Positions 41,704 through 44,915 of a DNA stretch of 64,000 bases are shown in pieces. The DNA comes from Candidatus Epulonipiscium sp. (GTDB lineage Bacteria; Bacillota; Clostridia; Lachnospirales; JAAYNZ01). Made by a program: the position numbers and the translations under genes. Below the pieces are notes generated by a model. It saw only the letters and a list, made by a program, of their open reading frames with translations, made no database searches and was not told the DNA's origin. Position 1 is the first letter of the stretch; every line of letters starts with the position of its first letter. The DNA lies in assembly GCA_012799415.1 (NCBI GenBank), contig JAAZLH010000161.1:217-64216 (forward strand), given 5' to 3'.

Positions 41704-43344
41704 TTATTCTCCCTCCAAAATTGTTTTTGTAAATCGGCTAGGATCAAAAGATTGCTTGAAATCACTAGGAGGATATAAATCACCAAATCCTAAATCTTCT
41801 ACATTTCCTTTGACTAGACCACCTTCTTCTTCTACAGATAAAGTAACCTGTAATTTTGTTTTTCCTGAAGGTCGCTCTGGTAATCCTTTGATATATACTT
41901 CACCAATAAGTTTGCAATGCTCAATGGTGTCCTCTTTATCGATTCTTTCTAATATTTTAAGTTCTAATGTAGTCATATCTTTAGGATCGACTCCAGTTAA
42001 GGTAAATACATGACTTTTTTTGGCCAATGTATAAGGAGTTCCCCTACGGATCATTGTGAAAAATGACTTTCTATTGCCATGATCCACTTCGAGACCGATA
42101 TCGTGTGGTACCGTAACTTCAAATTCAACATCTAATTTTTCTGTTGCCATATCTGGATGAGTCAATAAACCCATTTTCATAGCTGCATAATAAGTAGCTC
42201 CCAAAGATATGTCAAGAGCAGGTCGTTCTGATGTGTAAATTTTATTTTCATCATTAAAAATGCCAATGAGCATGTCCTTAACCCAAGGCATTTGGGTGGA
42301 ACCCCCTTCTAATAACACCCGATGGATATCACTGGACACCACAGCTCCTGTATAGGCCTCCCTAAGAGATTTTTGCACCAGTTTACGTGTTTTTTCAATA
42401 AAGGGATGTATCCAATCTTCCATTTGTTCTCTACTCACTTGTTCTACAAAAGGTGGCACGCAAAAAGTAAAGGGAATCCGAAAACTTTTTACACCTGAAA
42501 GTCGCTCTTTGGCTTCTTTAGATCTCATAATCAACTCTGCTTGGTTTTCTTTTGTAATTTCCGATGATTTTTGTCCCGTTTTTTCTTGTATATAATCATA
42601 ACATTTTTTAACGATTACTTCATCTATATTATCCCCTCCATGGTAGGCTTCCCCACCTTCACTGATTACTTGTAGTTTAATTCTCTGCTCATCTTTTTCG
42701 ATAACATGAAACAAAGTAATATCTAGGGTCCCGCCACCAAAATCAAAGACCATAATCTTTTCATCTTGATGCAACTGATGCCTAAAGTTATAAGCCAATG
42801 CAGCGGCTTTTGGTTCTTCTATTAAACAAATAAGCTGGTCCTTTAATCCTGCTAATTCACAGGCACGAATGGTGGCTTTTTTTGCACTATCATCAAAATC
42901 ATAAGGTACAGAAACAACACACCCGATCAATTCTGCTTTAGGATTCATATTACTACAATGAGAAACCAGCTCTCTTAAAATTTTAGCTGATATTTCTTCT
43001 GGAAGGTATTCTTTCCCAGATAATGTAACTGTTTCATTTGTACCCATCTTTCGCTTGATAGATAAAACCGTTGTTTCCGGATAGATCTTCATGGATCGGT
43101 AAGCTTCTTCACCAATGACCCATTCTCCTTCTTCCCCTTCGGTTCCTGGACGGTATTGTACCACCGACGGCAGAGGAATTTTCCCAAATCCATTACTAAT
43201 ATCTATGGCCTCTGGCCTTTTATTTCGATTATCCCAGTAACTAATAACTGAATTAGTTGTGCCTAAATCAATACCTAAAATATACCATTCTTCAGGCAAG
43301 TCATCCTGCTCTATTATTTTTTGCTTATAATCTTCCCAAGTCAC
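41704..43344 (-). CDS. Non-canonical Hsp70-family ATPase (546 aa, no helical lid)
   Basis: Motifs GIDLGTTNSVISYW, VFDFGGGTLDITLF and LEGGSTQMPWV. A beta-rich C-terminal region ends soon after GLPERPSGKTKLQVTLSV. Confidence 0.85.
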   Translation of the reverse strand: MTWEDYKQKIIEQDDLPEEWYILGIDLGTTNSVISYWDNRNKRPEAIDISNGFGKIPLPSVVQYRPGTEGEEGEWVIGEEAYRSMKIYPETTVLSIKRKMGTNETVTLSGKEYLPEEISAKILRELVSHCSNMNPKAELIGCVVSVPYDFDDSAKKATIRACELAGLKDQLICLIEEPKAAALAYNFRHQLHQDEKIMVFDFGGGTLDITLFHVIEKDEQRIKLQVISEGGEAYHGGDNIDEVIVKKCYDYIQEKTGQKSSEITKENQAELIMRSKEAKERLSGVKSFRIPFTFCVPPFVEQVSREQMEDWIHPFIEKTRKLVQKSLREAYTGAVVSSDIHRVLLEGGSTQMPWVKDMLIGIFNDENKIYTSERPALDISLGATYYAAMKMGLLTHPDMATEKLDVEFEVTVPHDIGLEVDHGNRKSFFTMIRRGTPYTLAKKSHVFTLTGVDPKDMTTLELKILERIDKEDTIEHCKLIGEVYIKGLPERPSGKTKLQVTLSVEEEGGLVKGNVEDLGFGDLYPPSDFKQSFDPSRFTKTILEGE

Positions 43345-44915
43345 AGTATCACCTCAAACTTTTTTTCATAATCTGTTGCTGGAAAAAACTCACCAAAACC
43401 TCGATCTTTAATAATTCCACTAAGCTTATAAGGGTTATCCATCCAATAGGATATGTCTATGCGGGTAGCCCCCCGTGGTCGTGTTGGAAGGTTATCTAAT
43501 ACCACTTCTCCTAGATAAGACTCTTCTCCTTTACCATTCCGTTGGTACCAATGCAACGTTAACTCTTCTTCTTCCTCATGCTGAGTGATAAAAGAAATAG
43601 TTTCATAATCATGCCACCAAAAAGACTTTTTTTCTACAAAAGGTATAAACTGATCTCCTTTTTTTGTTTCAATTTTGATTCCTAAATCTACAGTTAAACG
43701 ATGTTGGTCTTCTAGCTGTATGTCTAAAGGAGCTGCTAATCCAAGGTAAGAGGCAGCAGCCCAACAAGCACCGTGAGATATTTGTCCTTCTGAAAAGCTA
43801 TCATAAATCATTGGTATATGAGGAAACTTATCTTTTATGGTTTGCAAAGCCCAGTCCATTTCAAAACCACCACCTGATAAAACAACTTTTGTAATTTGAT
43901 GGGGTAAAAGAGGTTCCGTCATAGTTTTATTCAAAGCCTTTTTTAAAAATTCTTCTATTTGTTCCTGGAAGGGCTTAATTATTTTTTCTAGTTGCCCTTT
44001 CTCTATTGTTTTTTGAAATGCTGGATGTACAAAATTAAAATAAAGCTTCATAGATTTTCCTTGGAAATACTGTTGAAGCAACATAGCTTTATTATGGTAC
44101 AGTAAAATTTCAATTTGTTGTATTGTTTCTCTTGTAAGTTGATCTGGTTGCTCCTGTGTTTCTTCACAATATAGTTCTATAAAAAATCTCCTTAGTTTTT
44201 CTTCAAAATTCTGTAAACCTAGAGAAAAATCAAATAAAGAAGATAGAACTTCTCCCTTCATTTCCTCCTTTTGGGTATAAGTATGAAAAATTCCGCTTCT
44301 CAAAGATTCCATACCATAATCAATATATAGTATTTTTTCTTCTTCCTGTAACATTTCCTGATGATATAAAGAATGTAAAATACATTCCCGATGGGGTAAA
44401 AAACAAATCAGTTGTTGCTCTAGTCCCGCTAAGGAAAAAGCACGATAAAACTCTTCTTTGGCTTCGTCTGAAAAATAAGTTGGGGTGGCTACTACCATAC
44501 CGGCGATTTCTCCATTAGGATTAATATTTCTACACATTTCTACTAACTCTTTTAAATAGCGGCTTAGTAGTAAAGGTAAATTCATAGGTTTTCCATCGAT
44601 ATCAATCCATTCCCCGTAACCCAATCGCTGAACTGGATAAGTAATGGTAATATCTTCAAAAAAACCTTGATTTAGAACCGCATATTCACCGTAAACCCAT
44701 TCTTTATGTTCTGGAACATATTGCATAACTGTTGGAATCGAGGGTTTTCCATATCCTCCACTAATGTCGATCCATTCTGGCTCCTTACGGTTCACATTCC
44801 AATAAGAGATCACAGAGGTTTGATTCCCGATATCTAAGCCTAAAATAAATTTTGTTTCATCATCAAATGGTGTTTTAAGTGAACTAAAAATTTTTTTATA
44901 CCGTTTCCAACTCAT
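43341..44915 (-). CDS. Degenerate Hsp70-like protein (probable pseudo-ATPase), paralogue of the downstream gene
   Basis: Collinear with the 546-aa protein, including a shared ...SVISYW... The phosphate-1 motif reads LDIGNQTS, phosphate-2 reads IDYGMESL and the adenosine motif reads LSGGGFEMDW. The start is ATG 44915, after AGAGGGG. Confidence 0.75.
   Translation of the reverse strand: MSWKRYKKIFSSLKTPFDDETKFILGLDIGNQTSVISYWNVNRKEPEWIDISGGYGKPSIPTVMQYVPEHKEWVYGEYAVLNQGFFEDITITYPVQRLGYGEWIDIDGKPMNLPLLLSRYLKELVEMCRNINPNGEIAGMVVATPTYFSDEAKEEFYRAFSLAGLEQQLICFLPHRECILHSLYHQEMLQEEEKILYIDYGMESLRSGIFHTYTQKEEMKGEVLSSLFDFSLGLQNFEEKLRRFFIELYCEETQEQPDQLTRETIQQIEILLYHNKAMLLQQYFQGKSMKLYFNFVHPAFQKTIEKGQLEKIIKPFQEQIEEFLKKALNKTMTEPLLPHQITKVVLSGGGFEMDWALQTIKDKFPHIPMIYDSFSEGQISHGACWAAASYLGLAAPLDIQLEDQHRLTVDLGIKIETKKGDQFIPFVEKKSFWWHDYETISFITQHEEEEELTLHWYQRNGKGEESYLGEVVLDNLPTRPRGATRIDISYWMDNPYKLSGIIKDRGFGEFFPATDYEKKFEVIL

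What the first reader, a model, noticed from the sequence alone, without database searches (positions are those of the whole stretch)
41704..44915. Tandem Hsp70 paralogue pair: one intact ATPase, one with all three nucleotide-binding motifs degenerate
The 524-aa and 546-aa proteins share a distinctive N-terminus:
- 524-aa protein: MSWKRYKK...LGLDIGNQTSVISYWNVNRKEPEWIDISGGYGKPSIPTVMQY
- 546-aa protein: MTWEDYKQ...LGIDLGTTNSVISYWDNRNKRPEAIDISNGFGKIPLPSVVQY

They are therefore a tandem duplication, and their genes overlap by ATGA.

In the upstream copy, phosphate-1 DLGTTNS has become DIGNQTS. Phosphate-2 DxGGGTxD has become DYGMESL. The adenosine motif GGSTxxP has become GGGFEMD.

Inference: this is an active/inactive heterodimer-like arrangement, with a pseudo-ATPase as a regulatory or scaffolding subunit. 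Such arrangements are known in other ATPase families but not described for bacterial Hsp70s to my knowledge.
Basis: partly seen in the sequence, partly recalled or inferred. Interest (0 to 1): 0.6.

Follow-up and report, generated by a model that had tools for sequence, protein, structure and literature searches.

The report
Dead Hsp70 copy beside live one
Two neighbouring genes encode sister copies of the Hsp70 chaperone, one with a normal ATP-splitting site and one whose site has been rebuilt into a different but strictly conserved form. The rebuilt copy is the unstudied Pfam family DUF5716, a fixed part of a multi-Hsp70 gene cluster found only in Lachnospirales bacteria.

Summary
The 524-aa protein (E, 43341-44915, minus strand) and the 546-aa protein (F, 41704-43344) are each other's closest paralogues. 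They are 30% identical (E 1e-74) and form sister clades.

F keeps K70, E171 and DxGGGTxD in every orthologue; E never does. E is not decaying. Across 120 homologues its ATP-site loops are replaced by new conserved motifs: LDIGNDSS, DREC, DYGSRELRG and GGGFEM. AlphaFold gives a confident full Hsp70 fold (pLDDT 94).

E belongs to Pfam DUF5716. It occurs in 137 of 301 sampled genomes of the order and in none outside it. All 63 F-bearing genomes examined also hold E.

The proposed E-F heterodimer is not shown. In 11 genomes the cluster is split, with E staying with the scaffold, Hsp70 and GrpE-like genes and F leaving with the Hsp70-vWA gene. One large family keeps only a shortened E with the DUF5717 scaffold and a TPR protein, sometimes fused to the TPR protein, and has no dedicated active Hsp70.

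My best reading is that E is a non-catalytic adaptor subunit of an unstudied Hsp70 machine. I found no paper on it.

The parts
43341..44915 (-). E: 524-aa pseudo-Hsp70 (Pfam DUF5716_C plus a weak HSP70 hit). It has an NBD and SBD-beta but no helical lid, and its ATP-site motifs are remodelled: D28-I-G-N-Q-T-S, V95, P-H-R176-E-C178, D199-Y-G-M-E-S-L-R206, G348-G-G-F-E-M.
   Evidence: PF18980 scores 91.6 bits (cut-off 34.7) and PF00012 63.1 bits. AF2 gives pLDDT 94.3 and pTM 0.90. The top fold matches are full-length DnaK structures.
41704..43344 (-). F: 546-aa Hsp70 paralogue with an intact catalytic set (D26-L-G-T-T-N-S, SIKRKMG, IEEPKAAA, DFGGGTLD, EGGSTQMP). It has a GTG start and no helical lid.
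   Evidence: (all motif columns are 89-100% conserved in 48 orthologues). PF00012 scores 203 bits; PF18980 scores 43 bits.
43341..43344 (-). 4-nt GTGA overlap of the E stop (TGA) with the F start (GTG). The GAGGTG Shine-Dalgarno sequence lies inside the E 3' end, which implies translational coupling.
   Evidence: sequence read directly.
44929..46788 (-). D: 619-aa protein made of about 530 aa of predicted helical/coiled-coil sequence followed by a C-terminal GrpE domain. Its gene ends 13 nt before the E start.
   Evidence: PF01025 46.3 bits, cut-off 25.8, residues 536-616. (upstream of E in 66/69 loci). (conserved GrpE-like C-terminus RANVIAAR).
46809..48485 (-). C: 558-aa Hsp70 paralogue with an intact catalytic set and a conserved C-terminal VDELY motif.
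39624..41702 (-). G: 692-aa Hsp70 (NBD plus SBD-beta, intact motifs) fused to a C-terminal vWA domain. Its start lies 1 nt after the F stop.
38415..39590 (-). H: 391-aa TPR protein. Its orthologue is fused to the DUF5716 protein in one genome.
   Evidence: many TPR families. (L088, a 725-aa DUF5716-TPR fusion). (distance correlation with E, r 0.81).
37209..38399 (-). I: 396-aa coiled-coil protein with a central hydrophobic hairpin. It is the last gene of the cluster.
   Evidence: sequence. (present in the closest relatives L011 and L012). (present in some short-form clusters).
48501..52465 (-). A (51209-52465, 418 aa) and B (48501-51212, 903 aa) are the two halves of the DUF5717 scaffold family. 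Together they cover Pfam DUF5717_N positions 13-872 plus DUF5717 C. They are fused into one ~1100-1200-aa protein in the short-form clusters.
   Evidence: PF18984 169 and 193 bits; PF18983 72.8 bits..

Best explanation
E is a catalytically inactive but functional Hsp70 paralogue, a pseudo-ATPase of Pfam family DUF5716.

**Origin (shown).** E arose by an ancient duplication of the F-type cluster Hsp70.

**What it keeps and what it changed (shown).** E keeps the whole Hsp70 body: the nucleotide-binding-domain fold, SBD-beta, a shared N-terminal helix and a shared lobe-IB loop. Its ATP pocket has been rebuilt into a new, conserved set of charged residues. K70 is hydrophobic, the GGT of phosphate-2 is S-R-E, D201 is Arg, and GGSTR is GGGFE.

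**Role (inferred).** E no longer runs an ATP-driven cycle. It acts as a fixed, nucleotide-independent adaptor or holder subunit of a larger cytoplasmic, membrane-tethered machine. I infer that it docks onto the TPR protein H and the DUF5717 scaffold A/B, because these are the partners retained wherever E exists. In the full nine-gene version seen here, the three active Hsp70s (C, F and G-vWA), with the GrpE-like exchange factor D, would supply the ATP-driven remodelling. E would then link scaffold and clients to them.

**E-F contact.** Direct E-F contact is possible, through the shared and oppositely charged N-terminal helices or NBD-NBD as in Hsp110-Hsp70. It is not demonstrated.

**Not known.** The client and the cellular role of the machine.
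For: **Shown**
- E and F are mutual best paralogues and sister clades. The E stem is 1.34 against 0.41 for F, and E tips are 3-5 times longer.
- The catalytic motifs are 100% kept in C, F and G orthologues and never kept in 68-120 E orthologues. Instead E shows R at the D201 position in 118/120, Cys of DREC in 117/120 and GGGF in 120/120.
- 24 invariant and about 70 nearly invariant columns are found across 121 sequences.
- AF2 gives pLDDT 94.3 and pTM 0.90, with DnaK, Ssz1 and Sse1 among the fold matches.
- E is present in 137/301 genomes and 91/158 genera of the order, and in 0 of about 385 genomes of other orders of the class.
- E is present in the genome of all 63 F-seeded loci with room upstream.
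- All 31 sampled genomes of family f2 have one strong DUF5716 match. In the six f2 loci examined, five show DUF5717, a shortened E and TPR, with the coiled-coil protein I in one of them. The sixth, L089, showed DUF5717, TPR and I, but my ORF filter did not recover its DUF5716 ORF. None has C, D, F or G nearby, and most of these genomes have only DnaK.
- The short forms carry E-specific derived motifs.
- One genome fuses E to the TPR protein.

**Weaker**
- E's pairwise distances track H (r 0.81) and G (0.78) better than D (0.66). D tracks C and F (0.84, 0.83).
Against: - No biochemical data exist. E keeps the minimal actin-fold nucleotide signature (DxG in both phosphate loops, GG in the adenosine loop), so nucleotide binding cannot be excluded from sequence.
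- The model's coordinates could not be inspected, so pocket occlusion is inferred from residue types only.
- Partner assignment rests on gene retention, one fusion and a mirror-tree analysis of 21 taxa, which is weak evidence.
- D, not H, is E's most constant immediate neighbour (66/69 loci).
- No J-domain protein is encoded in the cluster, so how the active Hsp70s are triggered is unexplained.
Confidence: 0.6

Rival explanations
1. E and F form an obligate active/inactive heterodimer, and E is the regulatory or scaffolding partner specifically of F.
For: - E and F are sister paralogues.
- The GTGA overlap implies translational coupling.
- E lies immediately upstream of F in 43/63 F-seeded loci, and both are in the same genome in 63/63.
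- Both share a conserved N-terminal helix of opposite net charge, +1.5 against -2.7.
- Both share an identical-length, 100% conserved lobe-IB loop S-[GN]-G-[YF]-G-K that is absent from C, G and DnaK.
Against: - In 11 genomes the cluster is split so that E stays with A-B-C-D and F goes with G(-H).
- Family f2 keeps E without any F.
- The partial distance correlation between E and F is only 0.22.
- E's N-terminal helix is unchanged in loci lacking an adjacent F.
- No multimer prediction could be run.
Confidence: 0.25
2. E still binds nucleotide and acts as a non-hydrolysing or very slow switch, like Ssz1 or Hsp110. Alternatively it binds another phosphorylated ligand in the remodelled pocket.
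For: - D28, G30, D199, G201 and G348-G349 are invariant in 121 sequences. These are the core ASKHA phosphate and adenosine positions.
- The pocket motifs are under strong constraint rather than drifting.
- Ssz1 and Sse1 are among the fold matches.
Against: - Gly-to-Arg/Glu and Thr-to-Glu substitutions in the phosphate-2 loop, and an acidic residue in phosphate-1 (consensus N-D-S), should clash with or repel phosphates.
- The adenine-stacking Arg of GGSTR is Glu.
- The short-form orthologues lose even the phosphate-2 Asp and the GG pair, yet are retained in all 31 sampled genomes of that family.
Confidence: 0.25
3. E forms a permanent, ATP-insensitive complex with the GrpE domain of D, because a nucleotide-free NBD binds GrpE tightly. 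This would turn D-E into a coiled-coil-mounted substrate holder.
For: - D is upstream of E in 66/69 loci, the most constant adjacency.
- E's second most conserved segment, I-D-I-S-G-G-Y-G-K, aligns with the DnaK 28-33 loop. That loop contacts the GrpE beta-domain.
- Nucleotide-free DnaK NBD binds GrpE at about 4 nM, against 220 nM for the ADP form, and ATP dissociates the complex (PMC10825016).
- Short-form E, which lacks D, has lost this loop motif.
Against: - The partial distance correlation D-E is -0.12, while D-C is 0.61 and D-F is 0.62. This suggests D serves the active Hsp70s.
- F carries the same loop, so its conservation in E may be inherited rather than D-specific.
Confidence: 0.3
4. 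The cluster is an anti-phage or conflict system of the Hsp70-GrpE type described with GTPases, and E is a decoy or sensor.
For: - Thematic similarity exists to the GAP1-N2 GTPase systems, which combine Hsp70, GrpE, TPR and vWA parts (PMC7159879).
- There are weak PADLOC hits to candidate PDC-M61B.
Against: - No GTPase, effector or nuclease domain is found in any of the nine proteins.
- The PADLOC hits are marginal (best 29.5 bits) and E has none.
- The cluster is inherited vertically, with gene trees mirroring one another. It is near-universal in whole families and sits among ordinary chromosomal genes.
Confidence: 0.05

Closest known systems
Pfam DUF5716 (PF18980) with DUF5717 (PF18984/PF18983); NCBI 'DUF5716 family protein'
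   Same: E scores above the curated cut-off (91.6 bits against 34.7). Its homologues are named DUF5716 by NCBI. A and B together cover the DUF5717 models.
   Different: The Pfam model was built on the short form. E is a long form that still scores as HSP70 and matches only positions 82-293 of the model. No function is attached to either family, and no paper on their function was found.
Ssz1 / HSPA14, the atypical Hsp70 of the eukaryotic ribosome-associated complex
   Same: It is a non-cycling Hsp70 paralogue with a truncated C-terminus. It serves as a stable structural subunit bound to a co-chaperone scaffold and cooperates with a canonical active Hsp70. Ssz1 structures are among the fold matches (PMC8476630 and PMC7083937, listed).
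   Different: There is no orthology, since E is sister to the in-cluster F. No J-domain partner is present in the cluster. Ssz1 still binds ATP. The system is bacterial, not ribosome-linked as far as known.
Hsp110/Sse1-Hsp70 heterodimer
   Same: A divergent Hsp70 paralogue pairs NBD-to-NBD with an active Hsp70. The Sse1 and Hsp110:Hsc70 structures are fold matches.
   Different: Hsp110 needs bound ATP and has an extended SBD and lid. E lacks the lid and the ATP-binding residues. The cluster also already encodes a GrpE-type exchange factor.
Canonical bacterial Hsp70 systems (DnaK-DnaJ-GrpE, HscA, HscC)
   Same: The domain fold is the same. F, C and G keep every catalytic motif, and a GrpE-domain protein is encoded alongside. 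The genome also has a normal hrcA-grpE-dnaK-dnaJ operon.
   Different: All four cluster paralogues lack the helical lid and the VLLLD-type linker. There is no J-protein in the cluster. One member is catalytically dead, one is fused to vWA, and the GrpE-like protein is three times the normal length.
GAP1-N2 GTPase-centred conflict systems with Hsp70 and GrpE (Kaur et al. 2020, PMC7159879)
   Same: These systems also combine dedicated Hsp70 and GrpE genes, sometimes a second Hsp70-only protein, and TPR and vWA parts.
   Different: The defining GTPase and the FNIII/effector proteins are absent here.

Membership tests
Hsp70 (PF00012) superfamily | Actin-like two-lobed NBD followed by a beta-sandwich SBD; significant HSP70 profile match | tested here: met
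   E scores 63.1 bits on PF00012 (cut-off 20.6) and F scores 203 bits. E aligns to M. tuberculosis DnaK over residues 25-509. The AF2 model has pLDDT 94.3, with full-length DnaK as the best fold match at E 2e-31.
Hsp70 (functional ATPase) | Catalytic set K70, E171, T199 and D201, plus the DxGGGTxD and GGSTR motifs (E. coli DnaK numbering) | tested here: not met
   This applies to E. The residues are V95, H175, S204 and R206, with motifs DYGMESLR and GGGFE. The same loss is seen in all 120 homologues. F meets every one of these features.
Hsp70 (canonical architecture) | C-terminal alpha-helical lid (SBD-alpha) | tested here: not met
   Both E and F end right after SBD-beta. The alignment to DnaK stops at about DnaK residue 500, and DSSP shows only strands after residue 398.
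Pfam DUF5716 | Score above the PF18980 gathering threshold | tested here: met
   E scores 91.6 bits against 34.7. F also passes marginally at 43 bits. The precomputed Pfam annotation lists PF18980 for all 120 listed homologues.
Pfam DUF5716 | Genomic association with a DUF5717 scaffold gene and a TPR gene | tested here: met
   A/B (DUF5717) and H (TPR) are in the same cluster in the window and in most long-form loci. The five short-form loci where the E-like ORF was recovered show DUF5717, the E-like gene and TPR.
Ssz1/HSPA14-type atypical Hsp70 | Obligate heterodimer with a J-domain protein (Zuotin/MPP11) | tested here: not met
   No DnaJ (PF00226) hit at E <= 0.01 in any of the nine cluster proteins. 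Complex formation itself is not testable with these tools.
Ssz1/HSPA14-type atypical Hsp70 | Orthology to the eukaryotic Ssz1 clade | tested here: not met
   E is sister to the in-cluster paralogue F with SH-aLRT 100, so the loss of activity is independent.
Hsp110/Grp170 exchange factors | Intact ATP-binding site, extended SBD insertion and helical lid | tested here: not met
   The ATP-site residues are replaced. E is 524 aa long and has no lid.
GTPase-Hsp70-GrpE conflict systems (Kaur et al. 2020) | GAP1-N2 or DO-type GTPase gene in the neighbourhood | tested here: not met
   No GTPase family was found among the nine cluster proteins or the ten flanking proteins.
Known anti-phage defence systems (PADLOC-DB 2.0) | Significant match of cluster proteins to a defence-system model | tested here: not met
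   E has no hits. The others have only marginal hits of at most 29.5 bits to candidate models.

The most novel reading that the evidence does not exclude
This cluster would be the first bacterial multi-Hsp70 machine in which a pseudo-Hsp70 is an obligate structural subunit. E would bridge a giant DUF5717/TPR scaffold, tethered to the membrane by a coiled-coil protein, to three dedicated active Hsp70s and a giant GrpE. That would be a prokaryotic, independently evolved counterpart of the eukaryotic RAC-Ssb or Hsp110-Hsp70 arrangements. The Lachnospiraceae three-gene operon would be its ATPase-free remnant.
Probability: 0.35. Interest if true: 0.75.

Novelty: new variant of a known kind. Interest (0 to 1): 0.6.

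Why it matters
Catalytically dead Hsp70 paralogues that work as fixed subunits next to active Hsp70s are known from eukaryotes (Ssz1/HSPA14, and functionally Hsp110). I found no description of a bacterial one.

In this case the dead copy, its live sister, two more dedicated Hsp70s, an oversized GrpE, a vWA fusion, a TPR protein and a large scaffold are inherited together across much of the order Lachnospirales. One large family of that order, to which gut Lachnospiraceae records belong, keeps only the dead copy with the scaffold and the TPR protein.

This gives a natural series from a full machine to an ATPase-free remnant. The series can be used to ask what an Hsp70 body does once its motor is gone. 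It also points to an unstudied, widely conserved cellular function in abundant gut and digester anaerobes.

The pair is easy to test: two soluble proteins of about 60 kDa, with one cultured host (Defluviitalea phaphyphila Alg1) carrying the full cluster.

Tried and rejected
- **Pseudogene or decay reading of E: rejected.** The ORF is intact. There are 24 invariant and about 70 near-invariant columns over 121 sequences. New motifs are conserved at up to 100%, and the AF2 model is confident.
- **Defence-system reading: rejected.** PADLOC gives only marginal hits and there is no GTPase or effector.
- **Literature.** One paper holds the term DUF5716, an unrelated computational cancer study, and none holds DUF5717. 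No paper combines Hsp70, pseudo-ATPase and bacteria. A search on Hsp70, vWA and GrpE neighbourhoods led only to the GTPase-centred systems of Kaur et al..
- **J-domain partner.** I looked for one in the cluster and Pfam found none.
- **F missing from some clusters.** I first suspected that F is truly absent from 14/59 E loci. A whole-genome search showed an F orthologue elsewhere in at least 11 of 13 such genomes, so these are split clusters rather than losses.
- **Mirror-tree analysis.** It gave modules {A,B,H} and {C,D,F}, with E between them. It is suggestive only: 21 taxa and shared phylogeny.
- **Model coordinates.** They are not exposed to the Python box, so the geometry of the remodelled pocket could not be measured.
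- **Multimer prediction.** The tool folds single chains only, so no E-F, E-D or E-H multimer prediction could be run.
- **Promoter and terminator scan.** It was no better than shuffled sequence and was not used.

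
Full report
**1. What is there**

On the minus strand the window carries nine tightly packed genes:

| Gene | Coordinates | Length | Identity |
|---|---|---|---|
| A | 51209-52465 | 418 aa | DUF5717_N |
| B | 48501-51212 | 903 aa | DUF5717_N, DUF5717 C and TPR |
| C | 46809-48485 | 558 aa | Hsp70 |
| D | 44929-46788 | 619 aa | long helical region plus C-terminal GrpE domain |
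| E | 43341-44915 | 524 aa | the degenerate Hsp70 of the finding |
| F | 41704-43344 | 546 aa | the intact Hsp70 of the finding |
| G | 39624-41702 | 692 aa | Hsp70 fused to vWA |
| H | 38415-39590 | 391 aa | TPR |
| I | 37209-38399 | 396 aa | coiled coil with a hydrophobic hairpin |

Domain calls are from Pfam and NCBIfam. The genome also has an ordinary hrcA-grpE-dnaK-dnaJ operon on another contig. The four cluster Hsp70s are therefore extra copies.

**2. Checking the observation**

The quoted peptide strings are exact. E's ATG at 44915 follows AGAGGGG. F starts at a GTG preceded by GAGGTG. The E stop and F start overlap as GTGA, not ATGA. F's stop is 1 nt from G's ATG.

blastp gives E against F at 30% identity over the full length (E 1e-74). 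E matches C, G and DnaK at only 21-22%.

Aligned with the genome's own DnaK, F keeps IDLGTTNS, SIKRKMG, IEEPKAAA, DFGGGTLD and EGGSTQMP. E differs at each site:

- LDIGNQTS in phosphate-1.
- V95 at the K70 position.
- P-H-R-E-C across the E171 position.
- D-Y-G-M-E-S-L-R in phosphate-2, so T199 becomes S and D201 becomes R.
- GGGFEM in the adenosine motif.

E retains both phosphate-loop Asp-x-Gly pairs and the Gly-Gly of the adenosine loop.

**3. E is not decaying; it is a conserved family with a rebuilt pocket**

A database search returned 162 homologues, and the 120 listed are 503-551 aa long. NCBI names several of them 'DUF5716 family protein'. Sources include Candidatus Epulonipiscium, Defluviitalea and Defluviitaleaceae.

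In these 120 sequences the Hsp70 motifs are replaced by other conserved motifs:

- Consensus L-D-I-G-N-D-S-S in phosphate-1.
- A hydrophobic residue at K70.
- x-D-R-E-C, with R in 118/120 and C in 117/120.
- D-Y-G-S-R-E-L-R-G, with R at the D201 position in 118/120.
- G-G-G-F-E-M, with GGGF in 120/120.

A 121-row alignment has 24 invariant and about 70 near-invariant columns. With that alignment AlphaFold2 gives pLDDT 94.3 and pTM 0.90 for the whole chain. The model has an N-terminal helix (residues 3-12), an NBD and a beta-sandwich SBD with no lid. Foldseek's best matches are full-length DnaK structures (E 2e-31). Ssz1 of the RAC complex and Sse1/Hsp110 come further down the list.

E is thus a bona fide Hsp70-fold protein under purifying selection, with a derived active site.

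**4. Relationship of E and F**

I collected C, E, F and G orthologues from 74 related loci. K70, E171 and DxGGGTxD are 100% conserved in C (53), F (48) and G (37), and never conserved in E (68).

A maximum-likelihood tree rooted on DnaK gives four clean clades. E and F are sisters with SH-aLRT 100. The E stem is 1.34 substitutions per site against 0.41 for F, and E tips are several-fold longer.

E and F also share two features that C, G and DnaK lack:

- An N-terminal extension of about 20 residues beginning M-x-W-x-x-Y-K.
- A two-residue insertion giving the loop D-x-S-[GN]-G-[YF]-G-K, whose core S-G-G-Y-G in E and S-x-G-F-G in F is 100% conserved.

The duplication is therefore real but old, preceding the diversification of these lineages.

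**5. Is the dead copy kept with the live one?**

In E-seeded loci the gene order A-B-C-D-E-F-G-H is the rule. The counts are:

| Neighbour | Position relative to E | Loci |
|---|---|---|
| D | upstream | 66/69 |
| C | present | 51/58 |
| F | downstream | 45/59 |
| F | immediately adjacent | 35 of those 59 |

In 14/59 loci there is no F within reach. A whole-genome search of 13 such genomes found an F orthologue (66-76% identical) on another contig in 11, and a fragment in one more. It is usually followed by G.

In an independent F-seeded scan, 63 loci had room upstream. E lay upstream in 52 and was adjacent in 43. The other 11 belong to the same split-cluster assemblies, which hold E elsewhere.

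When the cluster breaks, however, it breaks between E and F.

**6. Wider distribution and the reduced form**

PF18980 matches 13 of 399 genomes sampled across the class, all of them in the window's own order. Within the order it matches 137 of 301 genomes and 91 of 158 genera.

In one large family (code f2) all 31 sampled genomes have one very strong match (E down to 1e-107) in a shorter protein of about 400-450 aa. By record titles of related loci, and by earlier notes of this scan, this family is probably Lachnospiraceae.

I examined six of these loci. Five show a reduced operon: DUF5717 with A and B fused (~1100-1200 aa), then short DUF5716, then TPR; the coiled-coil protein I follows in one of the five. 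The sixth, L089, showed DUF5717, TPR and I, but my ORF filter did not recover its DUF5716 ORF. None has C, D, F or G nearby. Most of these genomes contain only the housekeeping DnaK.

The short proteins carry E-specific derived features: G-x-G-F-E...W, x-x-E-[CS], and the C-terminal D-L-G-F-G-E-[LF]-[FY]-P. They are even more degenerate, and some lose the phosphate-2 Asp. In one genome the short DUF5716 is fused to the TPR protein (725 aa, L088).

The partners that always travel with the pseudo-Hsp70 are therefore the scaffold and the TPR protein, not an active Hsp70.

**7. Hints about contacts (weak evidence)**

Pairwise-distance comparison over 21 taxa gives these mean distances:

| Protein(s) | Mean distance |
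|---|---|
| C, F, G | 0.28-0.30 |
| E | 1.18 |
| A, B, D, H | 1.3-2.0 |

The distance vectors form two modules, {A,B,H} and {C,D,F}. E correlates best with H (r 0.81) and G (0.78). After removing the common signal, E-G is 0.52, E-H 0.43, E-F 0.22 and D-E -0.12, while D-C is 0.61 and D-F 0.62.

The N-terminal extensions of E and F have opposite net charge, +1.5 ± 1.35 against -2.7 ± 1.34. That would suit pairing, but E's extension is unchanged where F is not adjacent.

The shared lobe-IB loop aligns with DnaK residues 28-33. That loop contacts the GrpE beta-domain. Nucleotide-free DnaK NBD binds GrpE at about 4 nM, the ADP form at 220 nM, and ATP dissociates the complex (PMC10825016). A nucleotide-free E could therefore hold D's GrpE domain permanently. 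The short forms, which lack D, have lost this loop motif. These are inferences, not demonstrations.

**8. Most likely mechanism**

*Shown:*
- E is an ancient sister of F.
- E has lost the Hsp70 catalytic residues in all lineages.
- E keeps the full fold.
- E is conserved with the DUF5717 scaffold and the TPR protein.

*Inferred:*
- E does not run an ATP cycle.
- E serves as a fixed adaptor or holder subunit that ties the scaffold/TPR module to the active Hsp70 module (C, F and G with exchange factor D).
- In the reduced operon E works without dedicated ATPases.

*Rival readings:* direct E-F pairing (about 0.25), a permanent D-E complex (about 0.3) and residual nucleotide binding (about 0.25) remain open. 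They are not mutually exclusive.

*Rejected:* a defence role is unlikely. PADLOC hits are marginal, there is no GTPase or effector, inheritance is vertical, and the flanking genes are ordinary.

*Unknown:* the client and the cellular process. No J-domain protein is encoded in the cluster.

**9. Comparison with what is known, and novelty**

- **Catalogue entry.** The nearest entry is Pfam DUF5716/DUF5717. One paper holds the term DUF5716, an unrelated cancer study, and none holds DUF5717.
- **Functional analogues.** The nearest are eukaryotic Ssz1/HSPA14 in RAC and Hsp110-Hsp70 pairs. E is not orthologous to either and fails their defining features (membership table).
- **Conflict systems.** The GTPase-Hsp70-GrpE systems of Kaur et al. 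2020 share parts but not the GTPase.
- **Earlier notes of this scan.** They had independently described the short three- or four-gene operon. I reached the same picture from my own searches before reading them, and I extend it by showing the E/F sisterhood and the split-cluster pattern.

I rate this a new variant of a known kind: a pseudo-enzyme Hsp70 subunit, here bacterial and independently evolved. Interest is moderate to high for chaperone biology. It is tempered by the complete lack of functional data and by the family already being catalogued.

Noticed in passing
window 46812-46832 (C-terminus of C, minus strand); C orthologues in L011-L084: The Hsp70 paralogue C ends in a strongly conserved S-V-D-E-L-Y motif followed by zero to two residues, in nearly all of 52 orthologues. 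This is reminiscent of the eukaryotic EEVD tail that docks Hsp70 onto TPR co-chaperones, and a TPR protein (H) is encoded in the cluster.
   Followed up: partly
window 39624-41702: G is a complete, catalytically intact Hsp70 (NBD plus SBD-beta) fused to a C-terminal vWA domain. Its C-terminus is invariant-like (A-M-S-I-A-E-L-I-R-L) in 36 orthologues. It starts 1 nt after the F stop.
   Followed up: partly
window 44929-46788: D carries a GrpE C-terminal domain (PF01025, residues 536-616) behind about 530 residues of Q/E/K-rich helical sequence. That is three times the length of the genome's own GrpE (193 aa). Its distances co-vary with the active Hsp70s C and F rather than with E.
   Followed up: partly
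L043, L046, L049, L050, L052, L053, L060, L061 and their F-bearing partners L099, L133, L135, L152, L155, L158, L163: In about a dozen mostly termite-gut Defluviitaleaceae/Clostridiales MAGs the cluster is split into A-B-C-D-E (or C-D-E) on one contig and F-G(-H) on another. In others, small unrelated ORFs of 100-400 aa are inserted between E and F.
   Followed up: partly
L088 8892-11069 (genome G382): A natural fusion of the short DUF5716 pseudo-Hsp70 with the TPR protein gives one 725-aa ORF. This is Rosetta-stone evidence that the two interact.
   Followed up: partly
L080, and L085-L090: The two DUF5717 genes A and B of the window are one fused gene of ~1100-1200 aa in the short-form clusters, and also in one long-form locus (L080, 1179 aa).
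   Followed up: no
window 54296-60243: The upstream neighbourhood holds a SpoIID/peptidoglycan-binding protein (54296-55570, plus strand) and a 1175-aa protein with a CspB prodomain and subtilase domains, resembling a CspBA-type germination protease (56716-60243, minus strand). This fits a spore-forming host; no link to the Hsp70 cluster is shown.
   Followed up: no
window 43341-44915 compared with family consensus: The window's E and its two closest relatives (about 67-70% identical, Candidatus Epulonipiscium MAGs) deviate from the family consensus inside the rebuilt pocket. They have D-Y-G-M-E-S-L-R-S instead of D-Y-G-S-R-E-L-R-G, and P-H-R-E-C instead of P-D-R-E-C. The new motifs therefore still evolve in this lineage.
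   Followed up: no
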